This document shows, in pieces, positions 14,159 through 59,577 of a DNA stretch of 64,000 nucleotides. The stretch comes from a virus (Duplodnaviria > Heunggongvirae > Uroviricota > Caudoviricetes): IMG/VR virus record IMGVR_UViG_3300041955_001975, positions 26,738-90,737 of that record, one strand, 5' to 3'. The translations under genes and the position numbers were made by a program. Under the pieces are notes generated by a model, which was given only the letters and a program-made list of their open reading frames with translations, was not told the DNA's origin and searched no databases. Positions within the stretch are counted from its first letter, which is position 1, and every line of letters starts with the position of its first letter.

Positions 14159-14161
14159 CGC

Positions 14162-17020: not shown

Positions 17021-17060
17021 GGGAGACCCAGGGAGTGGAGGAGAGGGTTAGGACTTCAGC

Positions 17061-17162: not shown

Positions 17163-17654
17163 CTAGACAATCAGGGCCATCTGTTCGCCGTGCCCTCTTC
17201 GGAAATGCACGGCTCCACAGGCCCATCCAAATCCGAAGCCCACAGCGCGACCCGTCCACGGTGCGTAAACCTCGACAATCCCGCCATAGCGCTTAACCAT
17301 CAACAACCGTTTCCGGCTGCCGAAGACCTTGGCGATCGGCAGGAGGTAGACCACGTTGGCCGCCAACGCGAAACTGTGCTCAAGCCACGCATTGAGGATC
17401 GAGTAAGGTGGGTTGCCGATAATCCAGTCCACGGGCTGCTTCCAATCGAAGAAGTCTCGGCCCTCTCTGATCTCGCACCACAGACACTCCGGCACATGGC
17501 GGCTAAACGCACGATCGCCAGCGCAGGGGTCCAGCACCTTTCCTGTTGGCAGATAGCGACGAACGATCGCCGCGGCGACATGATCGGGCGTAAAGACCAC
17601 ATCCCGATCCTTGAAGTCCTTCGAGTTGTCAGACCGCAGGTGCGTCATCGGCAA
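17163..17654 (-). CDS. N6-adenine methyltransferase catalytic domain (Eco57I/TaqI-like, no target-recognition domain)
   Basis: FTPDHVAAAIV...VLDPCAGDRAF (motif X/I) and IIGNPPYS (motif IV). At 163 aa it is too short to include a TRD. It is flanked by a ~100-bp direct repeat. Confidence 0.55.
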   Translation of the reverse strand: MPMTHLRSDNSKDFKDRDVVFTPDHVAAAIVRRYLPTGKVLDPCAGDRAFSRHVPECLWCEIREGRDFFDWKQPVDWIIGNPPYSILNAWLEHSFALAANVVYLLPIAKVFGSRKRLLMVKRYGGIVEVYAPWTGRAVGFGFGWACGAVHFRRGHGEQMALIV

Positions 17655-32362: not shown

Positions 32363-32635
32363 TCAGGGAATCGGGCACGGAGCGTCGGGGTCCGGGTTCG
32401 GACTGCCGGGCTGCAAAAGCTGCCGGCTGCGCGATGCCTCCCTCACGCTCATCAGCGTGCTCTTGAGATCGGACCTGCGAGGGTCGATCGAGTCCAGATC
32501 ATGGGAGGCGCGAGCAGCCCGCGCCGCCTCCCGAGCGTCTTGAATGTCCCGGCCGACATCGTTAGGATTGCGGCCCTGGGCCTCAATCAAGGCGATGCCC
32601 GGCGTCGGGTTGGTGGCCTTGCTTACGTTCTGCAT
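32363..32635 (-). CDS. small paralog family protein 1 (MQNV...AQGR family)
   Basis: MQNVSKATNPTPGIALIEAQGRNPNDVGRDIQDAREAA...DAPCPIP. One of four tandem paralogs. Confidence 0.45.
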   Translation of the reverse strand: MQNVSKATNPTPGIALIEAQGRNPNDVGRDIQDAREAARAARASHDLDSIDPRRSDLKSTLMSVREASRSRQLLQPGSPNPDPDAPCPIP

Positions 32636-32652
32636 GGATGCCCTTTCTTGGG

Positions 32653-32949
32653 CTACACGATGGGTTGTGGAGAAGGGGCGGCCGTATCCGTGGCCACGGC
32701 CCTGGGATAAGTCGCCAGGGCCGGCTCGCCTCCCCACTCCCCGCCCCGCCTGTCCACGACCGCCTGCCTCATGGCCAGCAGCTTGCGTTGGACGGGCGTG
32801 TGGTCCACTGACACAGCGCGTTGGCGGACCTCCGCCGTGTGCCGAGCGTCCTGAACGTCCTGGTAGACCTCATCGTGACTGCGGCCCTGGGCCTCGATCA
32901 TCACGATGTCCGGCGAGGCGCTGTTGGTATTACCTACGTACTGAGTCAT
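32653..32949 (-). CDS. small paralog family protein 2
   Basis: MTQYVGNTNSASPDIVMIEAQGRSHDEVYQDVQDARHTA... Confidence 0.45.
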   Translation of the reverse strand: MTQYVGNTNSASPDIVMIEAQGRSHDEVYQDVQDARHTAEVRQRAVSVDHTPVQRKLLAMRQAVVDRRGGEWGGEPALATYPRAVATDTAAPSPQPIV

Positions 32950-33036
32950 GGTCGCCTCGTGTCGGGGATCGGACATCCCCATGACTGCGGCCTTGGGCCG
33001 CAATCATGGTGATGTCTGGGTGTCCCCTTCGTCTTG

Positions 33037-33315
33037 TCAGGGAATCGGGCACGGGGCATCCGTGTCCGGGGTCGTACCGATGGTGGGCGTCAGATCACGC
33101 TCCGCGTGCGCCTTCATCATCATGGCCTTCAGCCTGTCCTTGACCCCGGAGGTGAGGGTGCCGGAGGGTGCCGCTTCGTGCGACAACCGCGCCGCCGCCA
33201 CCGTCTGCCGGGCATTCTGGATGTCCTGGTGGACGGCATCGCTGTCGCGGCCCTGGGCCGGAATCAGCACGATGTCCGGCGATGGGCTGGTGACGGGTTT
33301 TCCTACGTTCTGCAT
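33037..33315 (-). CDS. small paralog family protein 3
   Basis: MQNVGKPVTSPSPDIVLIPAQGRDSDAVHQDIQNARQTV...DAPCPIP. Confidence 0.45.
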   Translation of the reverse strand: MQNVGKPVTSPSPDIVLIPAQGRDSDAVHQDIQNARQTVAAARLSHEAAPSGTLTSGVKDRLKAMMMKAHAERDLTPTIGTTPDTDAPCPIP

Positions 33316-33918: not shown

Positions 33919-36900
33919 TTAGTAAACGATCGCCGAAACCAGGGACGCAACAGTGCTTGCGTCGGTCTGAATTGCCGTGAACTGGGCCGAATTCAGCGTG
34001 GCCCCCCACGCCTGAGAGACAAAAGGCGCGATGAGAGTTACGGTACTGGCCATGCCGAGGGCCAGGTTCGACACGTCGGCCGCCAACCGGGCAACGTCCG
34101 TCCCAAGCCGAGTGGCCGCCGTCACAATCGCAGTCGTCGAGCCTACCGAGATGCCGCGCACCACATTGGCCACGGCATCCAGTTGCACGGTCGCTGCCGA
34201 TCCCGGCACGTTGTAGAGGTAGTCCGACATGGCGGGTGTGTACGCGGCCTCGGCCTTCGCAAAATCCATCTTCAGGGCATACGTCGCACTGGTGTTCGTG
34301 GGGTCGATCACCGGGGCACCGACCTGGCCCAGGCTAAAGAAATCCCCCAGGTAGCCAAAGTTCTTGAGACCGGGATTCTTGCTGTCCATGATCTTCGTCG
34401 TGGAAAGGTCGAGCACAACGGCGGCAGGCACGGGGATGTCGGGGACCGACGCCTCCTGCAAGTAATCCAGGTTCAGGTCCAACTGCTTGGGAGATCCCGA
34501 AGTTGTCCCGGCATACTGATTGGGAAACACGACCGGCTGTGCCGTAAAGCCCACGTCCGTAGGCGTCGGGTCGCCCCAGTCGGCGTGCGGCCCGAAGATG
34601 ACGTTCGGACCGCCGACAAAGACTCCCCGGAGAATAGGCTGAATGCCGCCGGTAGGCACCGTGGAGCCGTCTCCCGTCAGGCCGCCGTCCGCCGCCGGTG
34701 CAACGGCATAGCTGGTGGACGGCAGTTGGCCGACCGGCAGGGGGCCGCCGGCATTCATACCGATGCCGCCGCCCCCGAAACCCACCGTCTCCTCCACGGA
34801 CAGCGGCCAGGTCTGGCTGGTCGGCAAATTGGCCGGCCAGTAGAAGGGGTTCTGCGTCATCGCCCCCGCATTCACCGGGCACTCGCACTCGAAGTCGATG
34901 CAGTTCTCCGCGGAGTTGTAGGCGGCCTTCTGCACCAGCACGGGCACGGCCGCCGAGGCGATCGCCCCAGGGACGTTGAACGTGACGCAATCGAAGGTCT
35001 CCAGGTTCAGCTTGTTCAAGAACGCGCGGAACCTGATCCGCTTCCAGATCATGGAGTAACGGATGAGCCAGAAGGTGGCCATCTTGAGGATGATGTCCGG
35101 CTGATTGAAGATCCACCAGTCGTAATCCTTCTCCCAGAGCCCATAGCGCGAGACGTTGTGCCTCAAGACGATCAACTGCTCCTGCTGCTCCCCCGGCTCA
35201 GGAGCGTAGCCCATCCTCCACTTGACGTTCATCTTGGTGACCAGGTTCTCCGTGTCCGTGGAGGCGATCTCCATGCCGCGCTCGGAGTCGATGTCGCTGG
35301 TGGTGATCGTGTCCACCGGCGTCGGCGGCTCAGGCAGGTAGGTGAGGTAGACCACTTCGTTCTCGATCCAGACCGCACAGCGGCACTGGAAGGCGATGTC
35401 CTTGAGCACTTGCAGCACGTTCTTGCGATCCAGCAAGGGGAAGTTGGCCGGGAAGGGGGCCAGCTTCGTGCGGCAATGGTTGAAGGAGGTCGCGTCCCAG
35501 GTCAGGTCCGTATAGTTCTCGATGAGGTACTCCAGGATGTCCACGATGTTCGGGCCGATCGACGACTGAAACGTGACGTAAATCTGGTCCGACCAGCCTG
35601 TGATCCAGTTGGTGTTCAAGTCCTGGTAGACCACCAGGGAGAGCCGTTGGTTCAGCACCACCTGCACGGCCGTGATGCTCCCGTACTGCACGGTCTCGAC
35701 CGTGTACCAGCTCGGCGGCACCACGTTCAGCACGCGCTGGCCGTTGACCGTCTGGTACGCCTTGACGCACAGCACCTGGCCGGGCGTGATGGAGGCGATG
35801 AAATTGCAACCCTGATTTGTGCCCAATTGGACCTTGGCCCCTGCGTCCGCCCAGAACTGCTTGGCGGTCAACATCGGCGGCTTCACGATGGGGGCCGTCG
35901 GCGTCGTGAGAATGGTGACCGCCTCGTCCAGAAGGCAGGGGTTAGCAGACAAGCTGCCAAGGCTGCCGCAGGGTATGTCGGCGGTGAAGTGCAGTGTGCT
36001 TACCGGCGGCGGGTTTAGCAGCGGGCAATCAATGAGATGCTGTGCCGCCTTCAGCTCCGCGTTCGCCACTTCCAGGTTGTAGTGAAGGATAACCTGCGGG
36101 TCCTCCGTCGCAGTGATGGTGAAGACCTCGCCCTGGAACGATCCCTGGAGGTATGCGCTGCCGAGCGTGAGCCACAATTGCTGGTTTTGCGGGAAATCCT
36201 CTCCCCCGAGTATGTGGATCGGATTGGCACCGGTGAATCCGGCCAACTCCGACAACTGCCGTGCGCGCGTGGCCCTCATGCAGGCTTCCTTATGATTCAG
36301 CAGGAATTCCTCGTTGGCCATCTGGTTGGAAATCGCCTGCGCCTGGTCCTTGTACTGCTGGTACTTGACCGGGTCCACGTCCTGCCAAAGGTCGGCCGCC
36401 TGCTGATACACGTTCATTTGCTGGCCTTGCTTCCAGAGGCCAAACAGCGTGGAGGGGTCGAAGTCCGTCCCGTTGGCGTACAGCGGCACGACCTCGCCGG
36501 TCCAGGTCACGAATCCCACGGGGTCCAGGGTCACGCCTTCGACGGCCAGATTGACCTCCAAGGCGGGGTAGTCGGCCACCTGTCCAAAGACCATCGGCCA
36601 CGCCTTGCCGATCATCTCGCTGGGAATGTAGGGAAAGCTGCCCTCCTCCACCGAGAAGCCGACTTCCAGGTTCTCCAAAGGCGAGACGATCGTGACCTTC
36701 AAGGTACGATCGCGCTCGTTCCAGGTCACCGGCGTATTGATTCGCCCGCTGAAGACCAGGAACTTGTCGGCCAGATCGAGCCCCTGGAACCACTGGTAGA
36801 TGCGGACATGGACATTGTAGATGTCGTAGGCGTCGAAGATCGCCTTGAGCGACCCGTCCGTGTCGTCCAGCGTCAGCCCGACCTGCGCCGAGCTGCCGTT

Positions 36901-37098
36901 GAAGGACAGGTCCAGCACGTCATCCAGGTCACCCAGTTCAACGATCTTGCCGGGGATGGGCGGCGGCCCGGGGAGATCCCTGTCGGCGTAAGACTGCGTG
37001 GCAGCACCCTTGTACCAGTCGATCTCGACGATCGAGATCGGCTCAGTCCCATACTGGGCGGCGAGCTTGGCCAGGCCGTTGCTGGAAATCGTTCGCAT
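33919..37098 (-). CDS. large tail protein (tail tip/host-specificity J-like)
   Basis: 1059 aa at the distal end of the tail module. Has a Gly-rich C-terminal region. Preceded by conserved motif copy E. Confidence 0.45.
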   Translation of the reverse strand: MRTISSNGLAKLAAQYGTEPISIVEIDWYKGAATQSYADRDLPGPPPIPGKIVELGDLDDVLDLSFNGSSAQVGLTLDDTDGSLKAIFDAYDIYNVHVRIYQWFQGLDLADKFLVFSGRINTPVTWNERDRTLKVTIVSPLENLEVGFSVEEGSFPYIPSEMIGKAWPMVFGQVADYPALEVNLAVEGVTLDPVGFVTWTGEVVPLYANGTDFDPSTLFGLWKQGQQMNVYQQAADLWQDVDPVKYQQYKDQAQAISNQMANEEFLLNHKEACMRATRARQLSELAGFTGANPIHILGGEDFPQNQQLWLTLGSAYLQGSFQGEVFTITATEDPQVILHYNLEVANAELKAAQHLIDCPLLNPPPVSTLHFTADIPCGSLGSLSANPCLLDEAVTILTTPTAPIVKPPMLTAKQFWADAGAKVQLGTNQGCNFIASITPGQVLCVKAYQTVNGQRVLNVVPPSWYTVETVQYGSITAVQVVLNQRLSLVVYQDLNTNWITGWSDQIYVTFQSSIGPNIVDILEYLIENYTDLTWDATSFNHCRTKLAPFPANFPLLDRKNVLQVLKDIAFQCRCAVWIENEVVYLTYLPEPPTPVDTITTSDIDSERGMEIASTDTENLVTKMNVKWRMGYAPEPGEQQEQLIVLRHNVSRYGLWEKDYDWWIFNQPDIILKMATFWLIRYSMIWKRIRFRAFLNKLNLETFDCVTFNVPGAIASAAVPVLVQKAAYNSAENCIDFECECPVNAGAMTQNPFYWPANLPTSQTWPLSVEETVGFGGGGIGMNAGGPLPVGQLPSTSYAVAPAADGGLTGDGSTVPTGGIQPILRGVFVGGPNVIFGPHADWGDPTPTDVGFTAQPVVFPNQYAGTTSGSPKQLDLNLDYLQEASVPDIPVPAAVVLDLSTTKIMDSKNPGLKNFGYLGDFFSLGQVGAPVIDPTNTSATYALKMDFAKAEAAYTPAMSDYLYNVPGSAATVQLDAVANVVRGISVGSTTAIVTAATRLGTDVARLAADVSNLALGMASTVTLIAPFVSQAWGATLNSAQFTAIQTDASTVASLVSAIVY

Positions 37099-37201: not shown

Positions 37202-37606
37202 CTAGGCGGTTTGCAGCACTCCCTCGAATTCCAGATCAATGGCCTGTACCTCCCCGCGAAGCAAGGGCGGCCGCGCCGGGGCACCTCGTTCGGGGGTGTC
37301 AAGCTCGAAGGGGTTGCTGGTGAAGTAGCCGACCCAGTTCCGTCCCAAGTGGTCCAGCACGTAAATCTTCGAGGCGAAGTAGGACTGGATGAAGGCCCGC
37401 AGTTCCAAGCCTTTGTTGCGGGTCAATTGAAACGTCCACTTCAGCCTCCGCCGGCCGCCCTTGGTCTTGACGTAGGTCCGCCGTGTGCCGTCCATCGCCC
37501 GCTTCACGATCACCGCATCGGTCAGGTTCATGGCATCGCTGAACTTCGGCTCGGGGAGAACCGTCAAGGTCTGCAACGTCGGATAGGGGGCCTGGAGGTA
37601 GAACAT
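37202..37606 (-). CDS. hypothetical tail-module protein
   Basis: 134 aa. C-terminus AIDLEFEGVLQTA resembles the C-terminus of the adjacent fibre (GLEFEGQLVS). Confidence 0.35.
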   Translation of the reverse strand: MFYLQAPYPTLQTLTVLPEPKFSDAMNLTDAVIVKRAMDGTRRTYVKTKGGRRRLKWTFQLTRNKGLELRAFIQSYFASKIYVLDHLGRNWVGYFTSNPFELDTPERGAPARPPLLRGEVQAIDLEFEGVLQTA

Positions 37607-37627: not shown

Positions 37628-39226
37628 CTACGAGACCAGTTGACCCTCAAACTCCAAGCCAGCCGTGAAGCTGTACTTGCTGTCTTCCACCACCGGGTCA
37701 TTGGGATTGGTGATGACACCCACCCAGCAGTGGCCTTCCCAATCCCAGAGGCCAATCTCCAGCCCGATGTGGTTCAGCATGAACTCCAGCAGGGCTTCGG
37801 CCTGCGTGGGCGTGAGCGCGGAAAAGGTCAGCACCAGGGTCTCCGTCTTCGGCCACATGGGGTCCGCGTACACGATCAGCGTGCCGCCTCGCGTCTCGCG
37901 GCTGATGCGGTTGAACTGCAAGCGGTCCTTGTTGCCGAACTCCGGGTTGCGCAGCACCAGCGTGTCCGTGGCCGTTCCCGTGGACGGGTAGACCAGGGTG
38001 AAGGTCCCCGGTGCCGCCGGGTTGGGGCCGGTCAAGGTGGCCGGGGGCGGCGTGGGATTGCCGGCCGTGCCCGCCCCGATGAAAGGTCGGTAGTCCCTCT
38101 TCACCAGTCCGAAGGGCAGCGTGTAGCTGAAGGACTGCTCAATGACGATGTTGTCCTCGGCCGACAACAGTCGCACGACCACCACCGAGGCCCGGTCGCC
38201 GATGGTCAGCGGATCGGTGGTCGGCCTGCCGACTGCGACCAGGGCCATGTCGCCCAATTCAAGCCCGTCAACAACTTCGGGCGAAGGGCTCTTGACAGCC
38301 GCATCACTGAGGCTGAGGGCGTCCGTTGCCGCAAGCGCGATCGCCGTAGAACGGATGACGCCGACCTGGATCGACTCGCCGAAGGAGAGCCGATCGGTCA
38401 CGCTTTGAGCGCTGTGCCAGATAACCTCCGAGTTGCTGTCCTGCAAGCCCGTGTAAACAGTCTGCGAGACATTGTTCGTCGAATCCCAGACCTGGTCCGA
38501 CGTTTGCAGCACGTCCACTGCGCCGGCGTAGATCGGCCCGATCTCATTGGCCGCATCGGCAATGGCAATCGCATCGGTGACCTGGAGGCTCCAGTGTTTC
38601 TGCTGCCAGACGGCCATCGAATCCTGGACAGGTATCTGGTCGATCGCGTCCAGGTGCTGGGTGGCGTCGTGGCCGGCGGCCGTATCCACCAGCGACAGCA
38701 CGTCAGTCGCGCCAGCCTGGATCACGGGGTTGGAGCCGGCCGCCGTGTCCGCCAGCGACAGCATGTCAGTCGCGCCGGCGTGGATCACAGGGTTGAAGCC
38801 GGCCGCCGCATCCGCCACCACAATGAAATCGGTGGCCTGCGGGCTGCCTATTTTCTGGACCGTCGCACTCTGGGAGACCGTCAGCGGATCGGTGACATTC
38901 TTGCCGCTCGGGCCGATGGCATCCTCATGGAGCGACAGGCTATCGGTCGCACTGACGATGTAGACCCAGGCAGATTGGGCCTGGTCTGCAACCGCCAAGG
39001 TGTCGGCCGCCGTCCGTGAGGCGATATGACACACCACAGCTTGATCGCCGAGCGAGAGAGCGGAGAGAGTGGAGCAAGCGGCAGCGTGCCCGACGTTTGC
39101 GGCATCGTTCAACGTCAGGGGATCTAAGGCGCTGGCGGTGTACGCACTGACCACCGTGTCCTGACCGAGGACAATGTTGCCAAGTTCGGCGTTGACGACA
39201 CCCAGCCTGCCGGTAGTTGCAGCCAT
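37628..39226 (-). CDS. repeat-containing tail fibre protein
   Basis: Roughly 18-20-aa repeats (ATDxLSLxDxAAG...NPVIxAG) occur more than 12 times. 532 aa. Confidence 0.5.
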   Translation of the reverse strand: MAATTGRLGVVNAELGNIVLGQDTVVSAYTASALDPLTLNDAANVGHAAACSTLSALSLGDQAVVCHIASRTAADTLAVADQAQSAWVYIVSATDSLSLHEDAIGPSGKNVTDPLTVSQSATVQKIGSPQATDFIVVADAAAGFNPVIHAGATDMLSLADTAAGSNPVIQAGATDVLSLVDTAAGHDATQHLDAIDQIPVQDSMAVWQQKHWSLQVTDAIAIADAANEIGPIYAGAVDVLQTSDQVWDSTNNVSQTVYTGLQDSNSEVIWHSAQSVTDRLSFGESIQVGVIRSTAIALAATDALSLSDAAVKSPSPEVVDGLELGDMALVAVGRPTTDPLTIGDRASVVVVRLLSAEDNIVIEQSFSYTLPFGLVKRDYRPFIGAGTAGNPTPPPATLTGPNPAAPGTFTLVYPSTGTATDTLVLRNPEFGNKDRLQFNRISRETRGGTLIVYADPMWPKTETLVLTFSALTPTQAEALLEFMLNHIGLEIGLWDWEGHCWVGVITNPNDPVVEDSKYSFTAGLEFEGQLVS

Positions 39227-39262: not shown

Positions 39263-40918
39263 CTAGAGCACGACCGTCGTGCCATCCGCGTTCAAGCCGC
39301 TGTAGAGATTCGTGACCTCGGTCGAAGTGAGGGCCCGGTTGTAGATGCGCAGGTCGCACAGGTTGCCGATGAAGGGCATGTTCGACAGGGTGCTCTCGCC
39401 AGTGCCTAGTTCCACAAACCCGGTGGCCGTGCTGATCGTAGATCCACTGGCCGTGCCCGTCGTCTGGAGCGTCCCATCCAAGTAGAACAGCACTTGGGAG
39501 TTCGCCGTATAGCCGCTGGGCACGATCCACACGCCGTGGTGCCAGGTGTCGGCGCTGATCGTGCTGGAGGAGACAACACCGCCTGAGTAGCAGTTCAGGC
39601 CCAGGCCCGAAGGCTGCATGTAGATATTGATGTTCTTCCCGGAGCTGCTTTGCCCATAGCAAAACGCGACGTTGCTGCGGGTGGTGCTCCAGGTGGACGG
39701 ACACTTGAACCAGACGGAAATGGTTCTCGGTGCCGTGGACAATGGTAGGGGCCAGTCGCAAACGCCGCCGCTCTTATAAACGTCATCGGAGCCGTTGAAC
39801 AGGGCGCTACGCCAGGCAGGGTTCGTCAGCGCGGCCGGCACATCCGTGGAGACGGTCGGGTAGCCCGACGACGGGTTCAGACAAATCTGGAAACCCGAGG
39901 AGTCCGCGTAGCCGCCCGTGGTGACGGTCTCGTTCAGCTTGTACCAGCCGACCAGGCCGGCCTCGGGCTGGCCGCTGGGCGCTCCCTCGTCCCAGGCCAG
40001 CAACACCACCGATGTAGGAGCGGAGTTGATCGTCGAGCAATAGAAGACCAGTTGGTCGGGCTCGTAGCCGCTGGGATTAAAGGTGGTGTCGGTGGGGGCG
40101 GCGCAGCCGTAGACCGGAATCCAATCGACCCCGTTGTTGGAGATGTAAAAGCCGCAACCCGTCTCACCGTTTTCCGAGGTGCAGCGGACCGCCTTCAACC
40201 AGAGGCGATCGGCGGGGGAGATAGTCGTCAATGCCAACTTGGCAGGCGTCGTGCTATCCGCGGTCGCTGGGGCACGAACCGTGATGCTCGGGCCCGCAGA
40301 CGACCAGAGCACCAGCTCGGCCTGCCCGTGCGTACTGTCGCGGAAGCCGATCCCTACCAGGCCGGCCGTGCCGTAGTTGATGTAGGTCGCCGCATCCACA
40401 CAGGCCACCAGCGTAACCACGCCGTTAGTGGCGCTAGGCATGGGCCGGGTCAGGTACACGCCCTCGTAGCTGCTGCCGCCGGTCTTGGCGATCGTCAGCG
40501 CGTTGCCGGTCTGCGTGACCGTGGTATCACTGTGCGAGTCCACCTTCGTAAAATCGCTGACAACCAGGGCAGTGCCGGAGGAGTTCACGATGCGAAGGGG
40601 AGGCTGAACTGCTGCCCAGGAGCAATTGTCCGCCAGGAAAGTCTGCAAACTGCCTGCTGCGAGGATCACGAGGACCGGCGCGGCAGAGGCGTGCGTGGCG
40701 GCTGTGGTGCCTTCGATTCCCCGCGCGACGGTCAAGGTCGTGCCGGCGCAGCCGGTGCAGAGCATGATTTCGCCGTCCACCAGCAGGCGAAAGTCGCCCG
40801 TGGCCGGAAGCGCGGCAGCGCTGGCGACCGTCAGGGTCGTCGCCGTCGTCGAGGTGATGGCGGCCGACAGCGTCGTGGCTGCCGCATCGACAAGTTGCTC
40901 GCGTCGTACCGCCATCAT
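39263..40918 (-). CDS. tail fibre / receptor-binding protein with C-terminal LamG (concanavalin-A-like) domain
   Basis: Shared N-terminal domain (ATGDFRLLVDGEIMLCT...TLTVARGIEGTTAATHASA). C-terminal LamG-like block (RTISVWFKC...WHHGVWIV...VLFYLDGTL...LCDLRIYNRALTSTEVTNLY). Confidence 0.6.
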   Translation of the reverse strand: MMAVRREQLVDAAATTLSAAITSTTATTLTVASAAALPATGDFRLLVDGEIMLCTGCAGTTLTVARGIEGTTAATHASAAPVLVILAAGSLQTFLADNCSWAAVQPPLRIVNSSGTALVVSDFTKVDSHSDTTVTQTGNALTIAKTGGSSYEGVYLTRPMPSATNGVVTLVACVDAATYINYGTAGLVGIGFRDSTHGQAELVLWSSAGPSITVRAPATADSTTPAKLALTTISPADRLWLKAVRCTSENGETGCGFYISNNGVDWIPVYGCAAPTDTTFNPSGYEPDQLVFYCSTINSAPTSVVLLAWDEGAPSGQPEAGLVGWYKLNETVTTGGYADSSGFQICLNPSSGYPTVSTDVPAALTNPAWRSALFNGSDDVYKSGGVCDWPLPLSTAPRTISVWFKCPSTWSTTRSNVAFCYGQSSSGKNINIYMQPSGLGLNCYSGGVVSSSTISADTWHHGVWIVPSGYTANSQVLFYLDGTLQTTGTASGSTISTATGFVELGTGESTLSNMPFIGNLCDLRIYNRALTSTEVTNLYSGLNADGTTVVL

Positions 40919-40927
40919 ACACCTCGC

Positions 40928-42610
40928 TTACAAGGCCACCGCCGAGCCGTCCGCATTCAAGCCGCTGTAAAGGTTGCCGATCCCAGTCGAGGTGAGGGCC
41001 GTGTTGTAGACCCGCATATCGCAGACCTTACCCGGAAAATAGTCGCTTGCACCCGGGTTGCGGCCGAAAAAGACGTTGCCCGGCTGCGTGTTCACCACGT
41101 GGGTGTCACTGTGCCCTGTCGTCGTCAGCAGCGCGCCGTCCAGGTAAAAGACGATCTGGGCGTTGCTGGTGCAACTCGTGGGCACGACCACCGCCAAGTG
41201 GTGCCAGCCGGTGTCCGGCCACGTCGAGCCTGAGAAATTGGTCCCCGGGGTTACGGTCGCGGTGGCGTTGCCGCCATTAACGTCAAGCTCCAGGCCAGCC
41301 GTGGCCAGCGATAATTGGAAAAACTGTCCCGAAGTGTTGTAGCCCCAGCCCAATAGCGCATACTCCGAGGGGATGGCACCGGCCGAGGCACACTTGAACC
41401 ACAACGAGATCGTGCGGGGCGTGCTGCCCAAGGGCAACAACTCCCAGTCCGTGGTCTGGGTGTAGTTCGAGGTTCCGTTGAAGTCCAAGGTCTGCCGGCC
41501 AGGAAGCGCGCTGGGGGAGTCCAGGGTCGTGGTAGGGGTGGCAACCTGGCCGCCGCTGATCGTGGCGTAGATTCGGTGGTGCAATTCCGCCGGCCCGTGA
41601 TCGAAAAGCGTCGATTGAACGGGGTTTTCGTTGCAGGGATACCAGCTCACCAGGCCCGACTCCGCCACGTTGGCCCCCTCGTCCCAAGCCAGCAGGTTCG
41701 CCGCACTGGGGTAGGGGCTGTCCGCCAGGTCCACGAAGATCAGGCTGTCCGGTGCGGTGCTGAAGAAGTCGCTCACCCGCTGAGAAAGGAGCGTCATCCA
41801 GTTGATGCCGGTGTCCGAGATGCTGTAGCTGTAGCCGTCGCCCGTGTAGCAAATCCGCATCCACAGGTGCGGCGTGGGGCCGAGGTTGGCGGTGCCGGAT
41901 GTGCCGTAGCCGTAGACTACGCCGGACGACCCGCCGCTGGTGGTCGTTGGGGCGCTGAACTGCGTGATGTATAAGAAAGCGCCCATGACGTTCATGGGCT
42001 GGTAGATGAAAGCGACGGCCTTGCCCGTGGACGAGCAGTACAGTCCCACGCCAACTTCCAAGTAACCCCCGTACAGCCCCATGCCGTCCACACAGGCCGT
42101 CAGCACCGCGGGGCGCTGAGATGGCAGCGGGCGTGTTAGCCAAGTGCCGAACACCTGGCTGGCCATACCGTTGCGTGCGACCGTAATCGCCGTGCCCCAT
42201 TGCTTGACGACAGGCGGCGGTCCGACACTGACCATGCCGAAGCTGGCCGTCGTCAAGGGGTTTCCCGAAGCGTCCACGAGCCGCAAGGGCGGTCGCTGGC
42301 CGGCCAGAGGGACGTTGTCACCGAGAAGTGTTTGAAGGGCCCCCTGGGTCAAGACGTTGACCACGGCAACGCCGCTGGCATGGCTTGCCGCCGTCGTCCC
42401 TTCTACTCCGCGGACGACCGTCAGGGTCGTACCCGAGATGGCCGTGCAAAGCATCACCTCCAGCTCGACCAGCAGGCGGAAGTCGCCAGTGGCGGGAAAG
42501 AGGCTGGCGCTGGCCACGCTCAGCGTCGTGGCCGAACTGTTCAGGGCGCTGGTCAACGTCGCGGCGGCGTTATTCATCAGTAGCTCGCGGCTGCTCATGA
42601 TTCGCTCCAA
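40928..42610 (-). CDS. tail fibre / receptor-binding protein paralog with LamG domain
   Basis: Same N-terminal domain (ATGDFRLLVELEVMLCT...). LamG-like C-terminus (RTISLWFKC...WHHLAVVV...IVFYLDGALL...VCDMRVYNTALTSTGIGNLY). Confidence 0.6.
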   Translation of the reverse strand: MERIMSSRELLMNNAAATLTSALNSSATTLSVASASLFPATGDFRLLVELEVMLCTAISGTTLTVVRGVEGTTAASHASGVAVVNVLTQGALQTLLGDNVPLAGQRPPLRLVDASGNPLTTASFGMVSVGPPPVVKQWGTAITVARNGMASQVFGTWLTRPLPSQRPAVLTACVDGMGLYGGYLEVGVGLYCSSTGKAVAFIYQPMNVMGAFLYITQFSAPTTTSGGSSGVVYGYGTSGTANLGPTPHLWMRICYTGDGYSYSISDTGINWMTLLSQRVSDFFSTAPDSLIFVDLADSPYPSAANLLAWDEGANVAESGLVSWYPCNENPVQSTLFDHGPAELHHRIYATISGGQVATPTTTLDSPSALPGRQTLDFNGTSNYTQTTDWELLPLGSTPRTISLWFKCASAGAIPSEYALLGWGYNTSGQFFQLSLATAGLELDVNGGNATATVTPGTNFSGSTWPDTGWHHLAVVVPTSCTSNAQIVFYLDGALLTTTGHSDTHVVNTQPGNVFFGRNPGASDYFPGKVCDMRVYNTALTSTGIGNLYSGLNADGSAVAL

Positions 42611-43560
42611 GCCAGGAGGCTACCCGAAGTCTGTTGGGCATTGTTGCTGCCGACCATGAAGAACGCCTGGTTGAAGAGGTCGCCGCTGTGCGTGTAATAG
42701 TCAGCAGACGTGGTGAGCACCAGCCAGTTCACTCCGTCCGCGGAGACCGAGTACGTCGCCGTGTGGCTGGCATCAATGGTGATCTTCATCCACGCCCGCG
42801 AGATGCGGCAGGTAGACGCAAGGCTCAGCAGCCAGGTGCTCTCCGTGTCAGAATCCGTCCAGCCGGCGACGCCGATATTGGAATTTGCAGCCGGGCAATA
42901 GACAATGCCGTAGGCATCTCCGTAGACGGAGTCGCACAGCCCGATGCCAAGATAGTTCACGTTGGGTGATACGTCGTCGATGTTAATGCCGCCGACGCAG
43001 GCAATTATCGTACAGGGGCGGGTCGCTGTCAGCGCTCGGAGCAACCAGGTCCCGTGGTAAGCGCCGCCGGTCGGTTGCGTGAGGATCTGGATCTGGTTGC
43101 CAACCTGCCGCGCGGCCCCGATGTTGCTTTTGTCGTTGATGGTGAAATTGCCGAGCGTCAAAGGGTTTCCGTTGATGTCCAGCAGCCGGAACGACGGCCG
43201 GCTGATGGCCGCCAAGGGCACGCTATCCTGCAAGAGAGCAGTCAGACCGCCGGCCGTCAGGATGTGCGCTACGACCGCCGCGCTGGCGTGCGAGGCCGGC
43301 GTCGTGCCCTCCATCCCGCGCGTCACCGTCAGCGTGACGCCCGAGACGCCCGTGCAAAGCAGCAACTCGGTATCAATAATCAGGCGGAAGTTGCCGGAAG
43401 CCGGAAAGGAAGCGCTGCTGGCCACGGTGATCGTCGCGTCCGACGACCCGGCCGCAGAGGCAAGGGTCGTGGCCGCCAGGTTCGTAAACTGCTCACGTGG
43501 GGCCATTGCGTCACCTGGAGGAAAGCGGGCCGGGGGGGGGATTAGAAGGCCGGCCCCCAA
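42595..43560 (-). CDS. tail fibre paralog (shared N-terminal domain, different C-terminal domain)
   Basis: N-terminus ASGNFRLIIDTELLLCT...TLTVTRGMEGTTPASHASA is homologous to the other two fibres. No LamG. Confidence 0.5.
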   Translation of the reverse strand: MGAGLLIPPPARFPPGDAMAPREQFTNLAATTLASAAGSSDATITVASSASFPASGNFRLIIDTELLLCTGVSGVTLTVTRGMEGTTPASHASAAVVAHILTAGGLTALLQDSVPLAAISRPSFRLLDINGNPLTLGNFTINDKSNIGAARQVGNQIQILTQPTGGAYHGTWLLRALTATRPCTIIACVGGINIDDVSPNVNYLGIGLCDSVYGDAYGIVYCPAANSNIGVAGWTDSDTESTWLLSLASTCRISRAWMKITIDASHTATYSVSADGVNWLVLTTSADYYTHSGDLFNQAFFMVGSNNAQQTSGSLLAWSES

Positions 43561-43581: not shown

Positions 43582-44202
43582 CTAGGCGGTGACGGAGTAG
43601 GTGATCTTCAACTGGTCGCCGCTCTGAACGGCCACGTCACCGCTGGTGAAGGCCGCTGCGGACCAGAGCGTTGCACCGCTGCCGCTGGTGTGGTCGCCCT
43701 TCGTCTGGCAAATGCTGTTGCCACCCACGAGGAAGAGGCCCTTGATCGTGCCGGTCGCCGTGATGTCGAAGACCGAGGCGGTCGAATTGGCGACCGCGGC
43801 CACGTGGGAAGTGACCGAGACCGCACCCGAGGTCCAGACCGGCCGGGTGGAGCTACTGCCACTGTTGAGGTCGTCGGTGTAGGCGGTGTTTTCCCGCCAG
43901 CCGTTGGTCCCGGCCAATTGGCCGTAGGCGTCCGCCTGGGCGTAGGCGGTGAAGCTCACGCTGTCCACAAGACCCATCCAGTAGGACGTGATCTGCGTGA
44001 CCGAATGGAACATCACGCCCAACAGCGCCGTGCGGCCCTCGTCGGTGATGTAGTTGGGCGCTTCGTAGGTGGCGAGCAGCTTCCCGCCGCGCCAATGCTC
44101 GACGTGGTACAGGCCATGCGGCTCCAGCTTGTCGCTGGCCGGCTTCGCGGGGCGGACCAATTCGACGTTGGCCCGCTGGCCCACATTCAAGGTGTCCTTC
44201 AT
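43582..44202 (-). CDS. tail protein (distal tail or fibre-associated)
   Basis: 206 aa immediately downstream of the tape measure gene. Ser/Thr/Gly-rich. Confidence 0.35.
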   Translation of the reverse strand: MKDTLNVGQRANVELVRPAKPASDKLEPHGLYHVEHWRGGKLLATYEAPNYITDEGRTALLGVMFHSVTQITSYWMGLVDSVSFTAYAQADAYGQLAGTNGWRENTAYTDDLNSGSSSTRPVWTSGAVSVTSHVAAVANSTASVFDITATGTIKGLFLVGGNSICQTKGDHTSGSGATLWSAAAFTSGDVAVQSGDQLKITYSVTA

Positions 44203-44228: not shown

Positions 44229-47200
44229 CTAAAGGATCGAGGAGCCGCGCCGAAGTTCCCGGCGGAGTTCCGTGGCGATCGACCTGCCCGTTTGACGAGC
44301 CGAGCCGCCGCCGGTGACACTGACGTTGATGTCGCCCACGTTGGTCACGCTGCCGCCGTGGGTGTGATAGCTGGGCCTGACCCCAGCGTTCATGGCCGTC
44401 AGTTGCGAGGAAAACTTCCGTGCGCTGCCGGCGTTGATGACCATCTCGCCGGGGCTGAGCATGGCGCGGATGGTGTCCGTGCCGCGAGGGAAACCTCCAC
44501 CGGCGAGGAAGTTCCAGATGGCCCCGCCCCGGGCCTGTGCCGTCTGGGGATTCAATTGGCCGGCGACGATCGGCACCTGCACCCCGTCGTAAGCGGCTTT
44601 CAGGATCTTCACCTGCTCGGCCCAGGCCGCGGTCCTGGCAGCGGCCTTGGATGTCTCCGCCGCCGCCTGACTCGTAGTAGCGCCAACATCCTTGGTGGCG
44701 TCTGCGAGGTCTTGCGAGGCGGACACTCTCCCCGGCAACGTATCGTTCAATTGCCGCAAGTGGGCCTCGCCGGCGGCTGCGGGCCCTTGGTCTTTGTCCC
44801 TGATCTGCTGCTGAGTCTTCCGACGTTGCTCTTCGAGTTCCGTAATTCTCTGGAGCCGCTCGACGTTCGTACTGATGAGCCCCTCGGTCTCGCCAGCGCC
44901 GCTAAGAGGAAAAGCGTTATATCCTTGGGCCTTTGCCTTCCAGGCTTCCACCTGGTCCTTCGTGATCGTCTCGGGCATCGTGGACGCATTGCGGATCTGT
45001 CCCAAAGTCCGATACCGATCCTCCATCATCTCGCGCGTTTCCCTGGGACTGTCGCCGGTGAAGATGCTGCCGAAGTGGATCTTCGTCATCTCCCACATCC
45101 GCTTGTCCCAGCGATTGACGTTGACCTCGCTGCTCCCTTGGACAAGCTCCCTGGTCTTGTTGATCTCACGCTGTAGGTTCTGTTCGTTGGCCTTCAGGCT
45201 CTGGTAATCGGTGCTGGCCTTCTGCTGGTCCTTCAGCTTTTGCTCCGCCGCCGCGCGGGCCTGTTGCACCGTCTTGTCCTTCATCTCCTCCATGCTCAGG
45301 CCCGCAACCTTGGCGTAGATCGGAATGATGCCCAGGCCGTGCGTGATCTGTTCGTTCAACTTCGCCAGCGTCCCGGGGGCCGCTCGCATGTCCCTGATCT
45401 GCACGTCGGTGATGCCGGCCTTCATGTTGTCCGCCATCTTGCTCCGCAAGCTGGCATAGTCCAGAAGCTTGGAGGCGTCCCACTTCTGGCTGAAGGCCAG
45501 CTCCAGGAAGGTCGAGGTGTCCTGGGCGAAGGCCGCAGCATCCTTGGTCCGCTGCTCCGCGCTCTTCGGGTTGCCCTTCTCGTCGTACTGATTGGCTTCC
45601 TTGGCAATCTGCTTGGCCAGGACCCGCATCTGGTTGGCCTGCTGCTCCTCCTTGGCGGCGGCCTGAGCGGCGGCCTGGGCCTGCTCCGCTTTGACCTTGC
45701 GAATGGCCTCCTCGTACTGGAGTCGCGTCCCCAGGAGGTTCTCGATCGTTTGCTCGGCCTCCTCCTGAAGCCGGATGTCCCCGGACGCCTTGGCCGCGGA
45801 AGCGGCCAACTGGGCGTATGCCTCCGCCCGCTTGAGGGTCAAGTCCGCCTTTTCCTGGTTCTCCGGCGAGGCCAGGTCCGAGCTGTTGCCGGCCTCATAG
45901 CCGCCGATCAAAGCGGGAGCCCCCGCCACGCTGAACGCCAGGCTCTTGGACCGCGCCAGATAGGCCGCCTCCTCCGCACGCGCCGCCTCCTTGGCGTCCT
46001 TGTACGCCGCGGCCTTCTTCTTCAAGTCAACATCAAACCGCGTGTCGGCCAGCTTCGTTTGAAGATCGAGGGTCCTTTTCTGGGACTTCTCGATGTCCTT
46101 CTCGTCTTCCTTCGCCAGGTCACGCAGTAGGTGGGAGCCCTTTTCCTTGGCGGAGATCAATTGCTCCATCGTGGACTTGGTGCTGGCGACCAGGTTTCCG
46201 TCCGACTTCTTGGCGGCGTCAAGCTCGTCGTCGTAGACCTTGCTGACCTGCGCGATGTACTGGAGACCGCGCTGCACGATCTTGCCGTACAACTCGTCGC
46301 TTGCGCGAATCCGCTCCCGATTGGCCGCGTCCTTCTTCTTGATCTCCTCGTCTTGCTCGGCCTCGAACTGCCTGGCGGCCTCCGCCGTCGCCTCGTGCAT
46401 CTTGGTGTCCACAAAATTGAAAGTCGCCCAGCCCGCCAAGACGGTCATCGCCCCCGAAGCGGCAAAACCAAAAGCCTTCATCTCGAACGTGGCGGCCTTG
46501 GCCTGCATCGAGGCGAGGGCAAAATAAGTCCCGATCGCCGTGATCGCGCCTACGAAAACCGTCGCCGGTCCGATGACGGCGCTGATGGCGGACTTGAGCG
46601 TGCCCACGCCGCCCACGAAATCCACGATCTTGGCGAGGCTCTGCACAAGACTCTCGCCGAGGTCCGTGGCGATGTAAGTCTTCAGGTCATTGATTTCTTT
46701 GTTGAGCCTGAAGGCGTCGGTGGCCTTGAACTTCGCACTCTCACTCTCCAGCAGCGCCGCACCGGACTTCCTCATGTTGTCGTAGCCGGCTGCCGCCGCA
46801 TTGGCATTGGGTCCCGTGTCCGTGAGGATGGCGTTAAGGGCCCGGACATTCGGGATCAGCTTCAGAATGCTCTGGAGATCGTTGTCCTGGCTGTTGGCCA
46901 GCGCTTGCAGCGCACCGATCAGGCCGCCCGACATGGCGATGAACTGCTCCCCGGAGTCGGCACCGAAGTTCTTCTTGAGGGCCTCGTGCAAGGGTCCAGA
47001 ATCCTTGGCCAAGGCCACCATGACGCTGCGCAGGGAGGTGATCGCTTCTGCCGGCTTGACGCCGGCCACCGTCAGTCGCTCGGTCGATGCGCCGACATCA
47101 TCAAGGCTGACGCCCAGGGCGTGGGCCGTGGACATGACCTTGCCCCAGGTCGCGGCGATCTCCTCGCCACGGACCCGGCCGTCCCGGATCACCTGGAAGA

Positions 47201-48059
47201 ACTTGCCCGCGATAACCGACGATTGGCTGGCTTCCATGCCGTAGGCGCGCAGCCCCCCGGTGACAAGATTGGTCGCCGTATTGAGCGACATGCAGCCCAC
47301 CCTGGCCAGGTCCGTTGCAGCGCTCATGACCTGGGCGCGGTCGGCGGCATTCGTATAGGCGGCGGATACGGCCTGGTACTCGGCCTCCACCACCTGTCCC
47401 ACGGGAAAGGCGGAGGCACTAGCCAGATCGGCGGTCTCCTTCTTCAAGGACTCAATGGCCCCGATGGGACCACCCATAATGGCATTCAGTTCGGAAATCC
47501 GCGTGGAGAACTCAAGGTTTGAGGACACCGCCTCCTGAAAAGCGTCCCGGACCATGCTCAGGCCCCGCACGATGGCCTGGGTGAAGACCACGCGCGACAG
47601 CGTCCGCAGGCTGACCAGGAAATCTAGTGACGCATCCTTCGCGGGCTTGACGGCCGGAGCGATCGGCGCAAAGCCGCCGGGAACCACTTTCCCGATGTTC
47701 TCGCCCTCACCGGCAATGTCCCGCAGGTCCTTCTTCATCTGCTCCGCCACGCCGGACGGAAGCCAGAGCTTCGACGACGGCGCGGGGGCCGGAGGAACGA
47801 TCGGTGCGGCCGGCGCTTGCGTGTGCTTACTCATGGATGAGCTGAGCTTCTCCATCGCAGAAGCAGCACTGGTGGCATACGTGGCCATCTCCTTGAGGTG
47901 GCCGATGGTCGCACTGGCACCACTATTCCAGGTAGACATGGCCTGGCCGAGGGAACCGAAGCGGCCCTCCAACTGCCCCATCTGCTCGTCCATCTTGGAG
48001 AGCGCAGCCAGGGCATCGCTCACGTCCCAGCCCAGCTTCTGAATGAGTTCATCTGCCAT
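44229..48059 (-). CDS. tail tape measure protein
   Basis: 1276 aa, strongly alpha-helical A/E/K/Q-rich composition, positioned between chaperone-like ORFs and tail-tip genes. Confidence 0.75.
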   Translation of the reverse strand: MADELIQKLGWDVSDALAALSKMDEQMGQLEGRFGSLGQAMSTWNSGASATIGHLKEMATYATSAASAMEKLSSSMSKHTQAPAAPIVPPAPAPSSKLWLPSGVAEQMKKDLRDIAGEGENIGKVVPGGFAPIAPAVKPAKDASLDFLVSLRTLSRVVFTQAIVRGLSMVRDAFQEAVSSNLEFSTRISELNAIMGGPIGAIESLKKETADLASASAFPVGQVVEAEYQAVSAAYTNAADRAQVMSAATDLARVGCMSLNTATNLVTGGLRAYGMEASQSSVIAGKFFQVIRDGRVRGEEIAATWGKVMSTAHALGVSLDDVGASTERLTVAGVKPAEAITSLRSVMVALAKDSGPLHEALKKNFGADSGEQFIAMSGGLIGALQALANSQDNDLQSILKLIPNVRALNAILTDTGPNANAAAAGYDNMRKSGAALLESESAKFKATDAFRLNKEINDLKTYIATDLGESLVQSLAKIVDFVGGVGTLKSAISAVIGPATVFVGAITAIGTYFALASMQAKAATFEMKAFGFAASGAMTVLAGWATFNFVDTKMHEATAEAARQFEAEQDEEIKKKDAANRERIRASDELYGKIVQRGLQYIAQVSKVYDDELDAAKKSDGNLVASTKSTMEQLISAKEKGSHLLRDLAKEDEKDIEKSQKRTLDLQTKLADTRFDVDLKKKAAAYKDAKEAARAEEAAYLARSKSLAFSVAGAPALIGGYEAGNSSDLASPENQEKADLTLKRAEAYAQLAASAAKASGDIRLQEEAEQTIENLLGTRLQYEEAIRKVKAEQAQAAAQAAAKEEQQANQMRVLAKQIAKEANQYDEKGNPKSAEQRTKDAAAFAQDTSTFLELAFSQKWDASKLLDYASLRSKMADNMKAGITDVQIRDMRAAPGTLAKLNEQITHGLGIIPIYAKVAGLSMEEMKDKTVQQARAAAEQKLKDQQKASTDYQSLKANEQNLQREINKTRELVQGSSEVNVNRWDKRMWEMTKIHFGSIFTGDSPRETREMMEDRYRTLGQIRNASTMPETITKDQVEAWKAKAQGYNAFPLSGAGETEGLISTNVERLQRITELEEQRRKTQQQIRDKDQGPAAAGEAHLRQLNDTLPGRVSASQDLADATKDVGATTSQAAAETSKAAARTAAWAEQVKILKAAYDGVQVPIVAGQLNPQTAQARGGAIWNFLAGGGFPRGTDTIRAMLSPGEMVINAGSARKFSSQLTAMNAGVRPSYHTHGGSVTNVGDINVSVTGGGSARQTGRSIATELRRELRRGSSIL

Positions 48060-58653: not shown

Positions 58654-58668
58654 TCCCGTTCACGGCTA

Positions 58669-59577
58669 TTACTGCGGCGTGAACACCTGCCAAGTCAAGT
58701 TACCTGCACCGTCTGCACTCAAGTAGTAGCACTTATTGGTTCCCACAGGGGCGGTCGGCAAACCGGCACTCGGGCCAGTTGGACCGGTGGCCCCTGTCGC
58801 ACCGGGAGGACCGCCGCTCGGGCCACTCGGGCCAGTCGGACCCGTCGCACCAATCTGGCCTGTCGCGCCGCGTGGACCAGTCGGACCAGTGGCTCCAGTC
58901 AAACCTGTGTCACCGACATCGCCGACATCGCCTTGCGGTCCAGTCGGGCCGTAGGGACCTGTTGGACCCGTCGCGCCAGTGACTCCCGTTGAGCCTGTCG
59001 CGCCTGTGGCTCCCGCACCAGTCGGCCCAGTTGCGCCGTCAGAACCAGCCGGTCCCGTCGCGCCCGTGGCTCCCGTGGCTCCCGCGCCCGTTGGCCCTGT
59101 CGGGCCAGCAGGACCTGTCGGTCCTGTGGCACCATCAGCGCCTGTCAGGCCGCTCGGTCCAGTAGGTCCGCCACTCGGGCCAGTCGCACCGATCGGACCG
59201 CTAGGGCCGGTCGCGCCATCGGGTCCTGTCTCGCCGATCTCACCTTGCGAACCCGAAGGACCAGAGGGACCTTGCGAGCCAGACGGCCCGCTTGGGCCAG
59301 TGGCACCATCAGCCCCAGTTGGACCAGAAGGACCATAGAGACCCTGCGAGCCGGAGGGCCCCGTGGCCCCTGTCTCGCCTTGTGGGCCGCTCGGTCCAGT
59401 CGCGCCAGTGGCTCCCGCGCCGGTCGGGCCCGTGGGGCCGATCGACCCGGTCGGACCAATGCGTCCAGAAGGACCGGAAGGGCCAGTGGCTCCAGTCGCC
59501 CCAACCGGGCCGCCCGATGGGCCGCTCGGGCCAGTCGGGCCTTGAGCCCCCAGAGGTTCGCTGTACGTGATCCCCAT
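58669..59577 (-). CDS. collagen-like Gly-X-Y repeat protein
   Basis: [26 protein letters not shown]... throughout. Short C-terminal domain ...[22 protein letters not shown]. Confidence 0.7.

What the first reader, a model, noticed from the sequence alone, without database searches (positions are those of the whole stretch)
39263..43560. Three consecutive tail-fibre paralogs with a shared ~100-aa N-terminal domain and divergent C-terminal domains
All three proteins start with a homologous block, ATGDFRLLV...LCT...TLTV.RG.EGTT...HASA. I read it as an attachment domain. The first two then carry different concanavalin-A/LamG-type lectin domains with the WFK...WHH...FYLDG...LYSGLN pattern. The third carries an unrelated shorter C-terminus. 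A repeat-rich fourth fibre and a J-like 1059-aa protein follow. This looks like either a multi-receptor-binding-protein arsenal or a cassette system where the shared 5' regions drive recombinational swapping.
Basis: seen in the sequence. Interest (0 to 1): 0.55.

Follow-up and report, generated by a model that had tools for sequence, protein, structure and literature searches.

The report
Tandem lectin-type tail adhesin paralogs
Three neighbouring genes in the tail module of a phage of Pirellulales (Planctomycetota) encode related proteins that share a fibre-anchor-type barrel and a lectin-like domain; this is a fairly ordinary multi-adhesin set, not an active gene-swapping cassette.

Summary
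All three share about 300 aa, not about 100. This core is a ~90-aa beta-barrel (55-62% identical) followed by a ~210-aa ConA-like jelly roll (31-35%). A and B add homologous, not different, Laminin_G_3 domains (43%). C simply ends after the shared core, so it has no "unrelated C-terminus".

The window is a phage. A 95%-identical copy lies on a 699-kb contig of a Pirellulales genome assembly. Relatives keep the order TMP, 206-aa gene, [barrel-jelly roll] genes, 532-aa, 134-aa and ~1000-aa genes. They carry from 1 to at least 4 core genes, most often 3.

The paralogs' DNA is 66-71% identical over the shared 5' regions, with no exact shared run over 16 nt. dN/dS is 0.07-0.11, and gene order is conserved. 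Cassette swapping is therefore unsupported.

The best reading is a set of tail-tip glycan adhesins. Interest is low to moderate.

The parts
42595..43506 (-). Paralog C (slot 1), 303 aa. It consists of the N beta-barrel (43228-43506) and the ConA-like middle domain (42598-43227), with no further domain.
   Evidence: (P0001 is 99% identical, 303 aa, same start).
40928..42598 (-). Paralog B (slot 2), 556 aa. It consists of the N barrel (42320-42598), the middle jelly roll (41669-42319) and Laminin_G_3 (40931-41668). Its ATG overlaps C's stop codon (ATGA).
   Evidence: PF13385, 68.5 bits; P0015 is 96% identical, 556 aa.
39263..40918 (-). Paralog A (slot 3), 551 aa. It consists of the N barrel (40631-40918), the middle jelly roll (39977-40630) and Laminin_G_3 (39266-39976).
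   Evidence: (PF13385, 61.9 bits).
43582..44202 (-). Conserved 206-aa gene that always lies between the tape measure gene and the paralog array. Function unassigned (phrog_8123).
44229..48059 (-). Tape measure protein, 1276 aa. It marks the upstream boundary of the tail-tip module.
   Evidence: (PF10145).
37628..39226 (-). Conserved 532-aa gene immediately downstream of the array. It has 21-aa (63-nt) repeats in its N-terminal half, and a C-terminal ~100 aa weakly similar to the next gene.
37202..37606 (-). Conserved 134-aa tail-tip gene.
33919..37098 (-). Conserved 1059-aa large tail-tip protein. Its 'J-like' label rests on position and size only. It is the fastest-diverging gene of the module between close relatives (86.7% aa identity, 29-aa length difference).

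Best explanation
C, B and A are three old tandem paralogs that encode peripheral tail-tip adhesins of a siphovirus-type phage of Pirellulales, probably carried as a prophage.

Each protein has the same core. First comes a ~90-aa six-stranded beta-barrel, homologous to the N-terminus of a GP4 tail-fibre protein (the only part of that chain modelled in the portal-tail complex) and inferred to dock the protein on the tail tip. Next comes a ~210-aa ConA-like jelly roll. B and A carry a second, C-terminal LamG jelly roll. The lectin-type domains are inferred to bind host surface glycans.

The genes are packed end to end and each has its own SD-like motif. The array is an expandable slot in an otherwise fixed tail module, holding 1 to at least 4 core genes in relatives and most often 3. 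It changes slowly, by duplication and by adding domains at either end. It does not change by ongoing recombination between the copies.

**Shown:** the homology, the domain folds, the conserved gene context, the purifying selection and the lack of identity tracts.

**Inferred:** presence in the virion, the docking role of the barrel, glycan binding and the oligomeric state.
For: - **Domain homology** is significant in all three shared or paired parts.
- **LamG:** PF13385 scores lie above the gathering threshold in A and B.
- **Folds:** in the AF2 model of B, the N and middle domains are confident, with pLDDT about 80-90. Foldseek hits are all ConA-like lectins, including tandem galectins, laminin LG4-5, NanA CBM40 and the mycobacteriophage TM4 gp23 receptor-binding domain.
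- **PHROG matches** of the N-domain are to tail fibre and tail protein families.
- **Conserved context:** the module TMP, g206, array, g532, g134, g1059 recurs in more than 20 related contigs.
- **Old, ordered paralogs:** slot orthology has bootstrap support of 100, 100 and 89.
- **Selection:** dN/dS is 0.07-0.11 for all three genes.
- **Host:** a 95%-identical copy lies on a 699-kb contig of a Pirellulales genome assembly.
Against: - There is no experimental evidence that any of the three proteins is in virions.
- The barrel is not strictly a terminal anchor. It is internal in the slot-1 orthologs of relatives (1055-1309 aa) and is repeated up to 34 times in giant proteins, where it looks more like a bead or spacer.
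- The model shows no fibre shaft, coiled coil or beta-helix, so 'fibre' may be the wrong shape. The LamG part of the model has low confidence.
- Between close relatives the paralogs evolve no faster than their neighbours. The 1059-aa protein is the variable one, so it may be the main host-range determinant.
- The middle domain could be structural rather than a lectin.
Confidence: 0.6

Rival explanations
1. The three paralogs co-assemble through their shared barrel-jelly roll core into a single hetero-oligomeric tail-tip appendage at fixed stoichiometry. They would then not be three independent receptor-binding proteins.
For: - Three copies is the modal state across many diverged lineages.
- Gene order is fixed and the genes abut or overlap (ATGA between C and B).
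- Copies within a genome are more alike than copies between distant lineages, as co-evolving partners could be.
- There is a precedent: the phiKZ gp131-family paralogs share an N-terminal region and form a hetero-hexameric fibre complex (PMC13250141).
Against: - Copy number is not fixed. One copy is seen in L011. L112 has two copies plus three unrelated ORFs of about 350-375 aa. L017, L107 and L117 have four or more.
- The GP4 homolog is present as 18 chains of a single sequence in the deposited complex.
- No multimer prediction could be run here.
Confidence: 0.12
2. This is the first reader's cassette idea: the conserved 5' regions are recombination substrates that shuffle C-terminal binding domains between the genes or with incoming phages.
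For: - The N-domain tree disagrees with the middle-domain tree for slot 3. Orthology has 20/100 bootstrap support in the N tree and 100/100 in the middle-domain tree.
- Copies cluster by genome between distant lineages, which would fit occasional gene conversion.
- Architectures differ by slot among relatives: LamG added at the C-terminus, or extensions of about 750-1010 aa at the N-terminus.
Against: - The 5' DNA is only 66-71% identical, and the longest exact shared run between genes is 16 nt and out of register; the other two pairs reach 10-12 nt, in register.
- No long near-identical repeat (TR/VR-like pair) was found in the 64-kb window.
- Slot orthology and order are stable down to 45-50% aa identity.
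- Selection is uniformly purifying.
- Close relatives (95-97% DNA identity) show no swapped modules.
Confidence: 0.08
3. These are not adhesins. They are structural baseplate or decoration proteins, or jelly-roll glycan-degrading enzymes (GH16/PL7-like depolymerases), that happen to share an anchoring barrel.
For: - Foldseek also lists jelly-roll enzymes, including PL7 alginate lyases and the accessory domains of GH43 enzymes.
- At least one core gene is present in every related tail module examined, as expected of a structural part.
- Conservation between close relatives is high.
Against: - No conserved acidic or catalytic residue set exists in the middle domain. Beyond position 94 of C, the only invariant residues across 13 homologs are F121, W239 and G258.
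- The best fold matches are non-catalytic lectins and carbohydrate-binding modules.
- No enzyme family matched in Pfam, and the only NCBIfam match was a weak TafC fimbrial-protein hit far below its cutoff.
Confidence: 0.15

Closest known systems
Tail-fibre protein of Ralstonia podophage GP4 (PDB 8jov chain 1; 439 aa)
   Different: GP4 is a podovirus whose fibres hang from an adaptor collar. Here the phage has a long tape measure protein, so it is siphovirus-type. The rest of the protein is a ConA-like/LamG lectin, not the GP4 fibre body. The docking partner is unknown.
phiKZ gp131-gp135 fibre paralogs (PMC13250141)
   Same: These are tandem paralogs with a similar N-terminal region and dissimilar C-terminal binding domains.
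   Different: No sequence or fold relation to them was tested or found. phiKZ is a jumbo myovirus and its C-terminal domains are beta-propellers. Co-assembly is shown there and is only speculative here.
Multi-tailspike or depolymerase sets with conserved N-terminal anchor domains (Klebsiella phage K64-1 S2-4, 9k4a; Pseudomonas phi297 gp61, 4ru5; Acinetobacter AP22 gp54, 4y9v)
   Different: Their distal parts are enzymatic beta-helices. Here they are non-catalytic-looking jelly rolls. The paralogs here are old and slowly evolving rather than horizontally swapped specificity modules. Which part of those chains aligns with the barrel was not checked.
Laminin_G_3 / ConA-like lectin domains in phage receptor-binding proteins (for example mycobacteriophage TM4 gp23 RBD, 9n6a; LamG-like proteins of cyanophages in BFVD)
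   Same: A and B pass the PF13385 threshold. The whole-protein model matches tandem ConA-like sandwiches and these phage proteins.
   Different: No ligand or receptor is known, and sequence identity to any characterised lectin is at most about 15%.

Membership tests
Laminin_G_3 (PF13385, ConA-like lectin/glucanase superfamily) | The Pfam HMM score is above the gathering threshold (27.6 bits). | tested here: met
   A scores 61.9 bits (residues 393-535) and B scores 68.5 bits (residues 378-544). C has no hit because it lacks this domain.
ConA-like jelly-roll fold (middle domain) | A beta-sandwich fold that matches solved ConA-like lectins. | tested here: met
   The middle domain in the AF2 model has pLDDT about 80. 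All top Foldseek PDB hits are ConA-like, including tandem galectin-8/9, laminin LG4-5 and DUF1349-type structures 3mep and 3o12 with TM 0.64-0.67. No Pfam model hits this domain.
GP4-type tail-fibre N-terminal barrel domain | Sequence and structural homology to residues ~4-100 of the GP4 fibre protein (8jov). | tested here: met
GP4-type tail-fibre N-terminal barrel domain | The domain physically docks the protein on the tail. | not testable with these tools
   This is inferred only from the GP4 structure, and from the domain being the most conserved part among the paralogs (55-62% against 31-35% for the middle domain).
Classical trimeric tail fibre or tailspike | A trimerising shaft (coiled coil, triple beta-helix or beta-helix) and a homotrimeric state. 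| tested here: inconclusive
   The monomer model shows three globular domains and only one short helix (residues 85-95) after the barrel. No multimer prediction was possible.
Lambda J / tip attachment protein J (for the neighbouring 1059-aa protein) | A match to a J-family profile or to a solved J protein. | tested here: not met
   No Pfam, PHROG, NCBIfam or PDB sequence match was found. Only size and position resemble J.
Diversity-generating or recombinational cassette system | Near-identical repeat tracts (TR/VR or conversion tracts) between the copies, with an associated reverse transcriptase or invertase. | tested here: not met
   No repeat of at least 60 nt links the genes, apart from segments that are 66-76% identical. 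The longest exact shared run is 16 nt. No RT or invertase was seen among the ORFs scanned, but not every ORF was scanned.

The most novel reading that the evidence does not exclude
The paralogs may not be independent receptor-binding proteins. They may co-assemble through their shared barrel-jelly roll core into one hetero-oligomeric tail-tip appendage, and be kept alike within each genome by occasional gene conversion. That would explain why three copies is the modal state and why copies cluster by genome between distant lineages. It would be a siphovirus counterpart of the phiKZ gp131-family hetero-hexameric fibre.
Probability: 0.12. Interest if true: 0.55.

Novelty: new member of a known kind. 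Interest (0 to 1): 0.3.

Why it matters
From general knowledge, phages of Planctomycetota are barely characterised. This locus gives a concrete, conserved candidate for their host-recognition apparatus: a lectin-type adhesin array placed between the tape measure gene and the tail-tip core genes.

The work also points to a ~90-aa barrel domain that no Pfam-A or NCBIfam model matched. It is present in about 28,000 protein clusters and now has a structural anchor in GP4, Chi and JBD30. A curated model of it would improve the annotation of tail fibres.

Beyond that, the finding is an ordinary example of paralogous receptor-binding proteins with a conserved anchor module.

Tried and rejected
- **tblastn of C against 50,697 GenBank phage records** gave no match. 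No cultured relative exists in that collection.
- **PDB sequence searches with neighbouring genes** (the 1059-aa, 532-aa and 206-aa proteins) gave nothing meaningful, so the identities of Dit, Tal and J remain unassigned.
- **NCBIfam** gave only a weak TafC fimbrial-protein hit on the LamG part, far below the cutoff.
It was repeated with alignment A1.
- **The GP4 structure paper** (J Mol Biol 2023, PMID 37660940) is not held. The role of the GP4 chain is therefore taken from the PDB entry description and from citing papers.
- **The 'copies are always 1 or 3' idea was entertained and then rejected.** After it seemed to suggest a heterotrimer. The metagenome scan then showed arrays with 2 copies and with 4 or more.
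- **A DGR explanation was considered and rejected.** There is no TR/VR-like repeat.
- **A truncated pseudogene explanation for C was considered and rejected.** The ~300-aa form is the commonest architecture in the family, and C has dN/dS of 0.07.
Full report
**1. What is in the sequence**

The region holds three consecutive minus-strand ORFs. Taking the ATG starts that match near-identical database proteins and have SD-like motifs upstream, the genes are:
- C: 42595-43506, 303 aa.
- B: 40928-42598, 556 aa. Its ATG overlaps C's stop codon as ATGA.
- A: 39263-40918, 551 aa, starting 9 nt after B ends.

The similarity is not compositional. phmmer E-values between paralogs are 1e-26 to 1e-27 for the first ~93 aa and 1e-16 to 1e-17 for the next ~210 aa. 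The C-termini of A and B match at 2e-34.

Per-domain identities are 55-62% for the N domain, 31-35% for the middle domain and 43% for LamG between A and B.

- The shared part is about 300 aa and ends at LLAWDEG/LLAWSES.
- The C-terminal domains of A and B are homologous Laminin_G_3 domains (PF13385, E 1e-16 and 9e-19).
- C has no alternative C-terminus. It stops where the shared core stops.

**2. Context**

The whole window is phage DNA. It encodes:
- a gpA-type large terminase, a portal, two collagen-like proteins and a GT1 glycosyltransferase;
- a P22-type coat protein, a major tail protein and a 1276-aa tape measure protein;
- DNA polymerase A, a DUF5906 primase/helicase, a ligase, three methyltransferases and a tRNA-Asn.

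The long tape measure protein, and the absence of any identified sheath gene, point to a siphovirus-type tail.

The transcription order is TMP, g206, C, B, A, g532, g134, g1059. A copy of this region that is 95% identical in DNA lies at 653-675 kb of a 699-kb contig of a Pirellulales genome assembly. Other homologs are annotated in Pirellulales, Planctomycetaceae, Thermoguttaceae and Gemmataceae assemblies. The host is therefore most likely a member of Pirellulales (Planctomycetota), and the phage is most simply a prophage. No integrase was identified in the window, so temperate status is inferred.

**3. Domain folds**

*Whole protein.* An AF2 model of B built on 18 homologs is confident for the N domain (pLDDT about 88) and the middle domain (about 80), but poor for LamG. 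Foldseek against the PDB returns only ConA-like sandwiches. These include the lectin domain of trypanosomal sialidase, tandem galectin-8 and -9, laminin LG4-5, neurexin, NanA CBM40, DUF1349-type proteins and the TM4 gp23 receptor-binding domain. BFVD returns phage LamG and ConA-like proteins. It also returns ~330-aa uncharacterised phage proteins with the core architecture, one of which UniProt names a 'virion structural protein' of S-PM2.

- Capsid and tail-tube decoration domains.

The N-domain profile also finds 8jov by sequence (E 2.9e-6, residues 4-100; 18 chains of one 439-aa sequence) and Chi 8vjh_A (E 1e-6, two internal copies). Papers that cite the GP4 study describe three fibre types hung from an adaptor collar.

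**4. How widespread the barrel is**

An exhaustive profile search finds 28,352 cluster representatives at E ≤ 1e-3 and 6,505 at E ≤ 1e-10. The top hits are giant proteins of up to 7,980 aa with up to 34 copies. Single N-terminal copies occur in proteins of about 150-790 aa, such as those studied here.

Neither Pfam-A nor NCBIfam has a model for it. In PHROGs it is embedded in tail fibre, tail protein and virion protein families. It is therefore a very common but uncurated phage virion module. It is used both as a terminal unit and as a repeated bead.

**5. Comparative genomics of the array**

Related contigs keep the module TMP, g206, array, g532, g134, g1059. The unit that recurs is the barrel plus middle domain ([N-Mid], about 300 aa). 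Three variants occur:
- the bare core;
- the core with a C-terminal LamG;
- the core at the C-terminus of 1055- to 1309-aa proteins, in slot 1 of L008, L010, L023, L024, L025 and L103-105.

L032 also has an [N-Mid-N] protein of 782 aa.

The number of core genes ranges from 1 to at least 4, and 3 is by far the commonest:

| Core genes | Loci |
|---|---|
| 1 | L011/L012 |
| 2, plus three unrelated ORFs of about 350-375 aa | L112 |
| 3 | window, L006/7, L014, L008/10, L009, L013, L019, L023/24, L026-30, L032, L036, L038, L039, L042, L095, L103, L105, L110 |
| 4 or more | L017, L107, L117 |

Within the window's sub-lineage each slot has its own ortholog in the same order, with NJ bootstrap support of 100, 100 and 89. 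The triplication is therefore older than the divergence of these phages to 45-50% aa identity.

Between distant sub-lineages, copies cluster by genome, and slot-to-slot alignment scores show no correspondence between matching slots. This means either repeated duplication or occasional concerted evolution. Artefacts of NJ at 25-35% identity cannot be excluded.

**6. Test of the recombination idea**

- The 5' 360-400 nt of the three genes are 66-71% identical. The longest exact shared run between genes is 16 nt and out of register; the other two pairs reach 10-12 nt, in register.
- No long near-identical repeat exists anywhere in the window other than the collagen repeats.
- Against L006/L007 (locus 97% identical in DNA to L014), C, B and A are 97.7%, 96.2% and 97% identical in protein. 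That is no more diverged than their neighbours. The 1059-aa protein is 86.7% identical with a 29-aa length difference.
- dN/dS is 0.07, 0.10 and 0.11 for C, B and A. The lectin domains show no elevation.

The only hint of exchange comes from slot 3. Its N domain does not group with its orthologs (20/100 bootstrap support), whereas its middle domain does (100/100). On a 93-aa domain this is weak evidence.

**7. Mechanism**

*Shown:* three intact, selected, tightly packed genes in a conserved tail-tip module, each with a fibre-type barrel and lectin-type domains.

*Inferred:* the barrel docks each protein on the tail tip, and the ConA-like and LamG domains bind host surface glycans. The array would give the virion several adhesin specificities or avidity.

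The main rival is co-assembly of the paralogs into one hetero-oligomeric appendage, for which the phiKZ gp131 family is a precedent. The variable copy number weakens it. A purely structural or enzymatic role is less likely because the middle domain has no conserved catalytic residues.

**8. Verdict**

This is a new member of a known kind, namely paralogous receptor-binding proteins with a conserved anchor. It has some added value from the unusual host phylum and from the uncurated, very widespread barrel domain.

Noticed in passing
window 56500-59577 (minus strand): Two adjacent collagen-like (Gly-X-Y) genes of 717 aa and 302 aa. The first matches PF01391 at E 2e-53. An 11-copy tandem repeat of 105 nt (35 aa), with copies mostly 90-96% identical, spans 56999-58348. 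The genes lie between the portal gene and a GT1 glycosyltransferase, upstream of the coat gene, and GC rises to 0.67-0.68 there. They may be head or neck fibres.
   Followed up: no
N-domains at window 43228-43506, 42320-42598, 40631-40918; proteins P0029-P0173: The ~90-aa barrel has no Pfam-A or NCBIfam model, yet it matches 28,352 cluster representatives. Among them are proteins of up to 7,980 aa with up to 34 tandem copies. It looks like a large uncurated phage virion domain family.
   Followed up: partly
window 33919-37098: The 1059-aa tail-tip protein is the fastest-diverging gene of the module between near-identical phages (86.7% aa identity, 29-aa length difference, dS 0.32 against 0.09-0.18 for its neighbours). 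This suggests it, rather than the paralogs, is the main specificity determinant or a recombination hotspot. It has no detectable family.
   Followed up: partly
window 37628-39226 and 37202-37606: The 532-aa protein has 21-aa (63-nt) tandem repeats (38663-38819 and weaker copies). Its C-terminal ~100 aa is weakly similar to the following 134-aa protein (BLASTP E 4e-4). In some relatives the two genes are fused (L036, L037, L114).
   Followed up: partly
L008 5745-8912; L010 2046-5975; L024 2399-6340: The slot-1 orthologs of C carry N-terminal extensions of about 750-1010 aa. L010 has a Gly_rich_2 domain and L008 has LamG-like segments. The conserved core is therefore at the C-terminus, which is the opposite polarity to B and A.
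   Followed up: partly
L004/L005 (Pirellulales MAG contigs), locus positions 4619-17332: A small element of about 13 kb bearing an integrase and HTH_17. It carries a tape measure homolog of the window's (E 1e-75) and a single core gene, but no obvious head genes. It may be a degraded prophage or a satellite-like element.
   Followed up: no
window 32522-33309: Three copies of a ~111-nt segment (63-74% identical), spaced 311 and 366 nt apart, just downstream of the 1059-aa gene. They are probably small paralogous genes.
   Followed up: no
window 2257-3015, 5022-6071, 22419-23657; 14968-15040: Three DNA methyltransferase genes (one D12-class and two N6_N4_Mtase) and a phage-borne tRNA-Asn (GTT).
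   Followed up: no
L013, L028, L036, L032 against the window (core genes): Between distant sub-lineages the tandem copies are more similar within a genome than to any copy elsewhere. This implies either repeated expansion, usually to three copies, or concerted evolution.
   Followed up: partly
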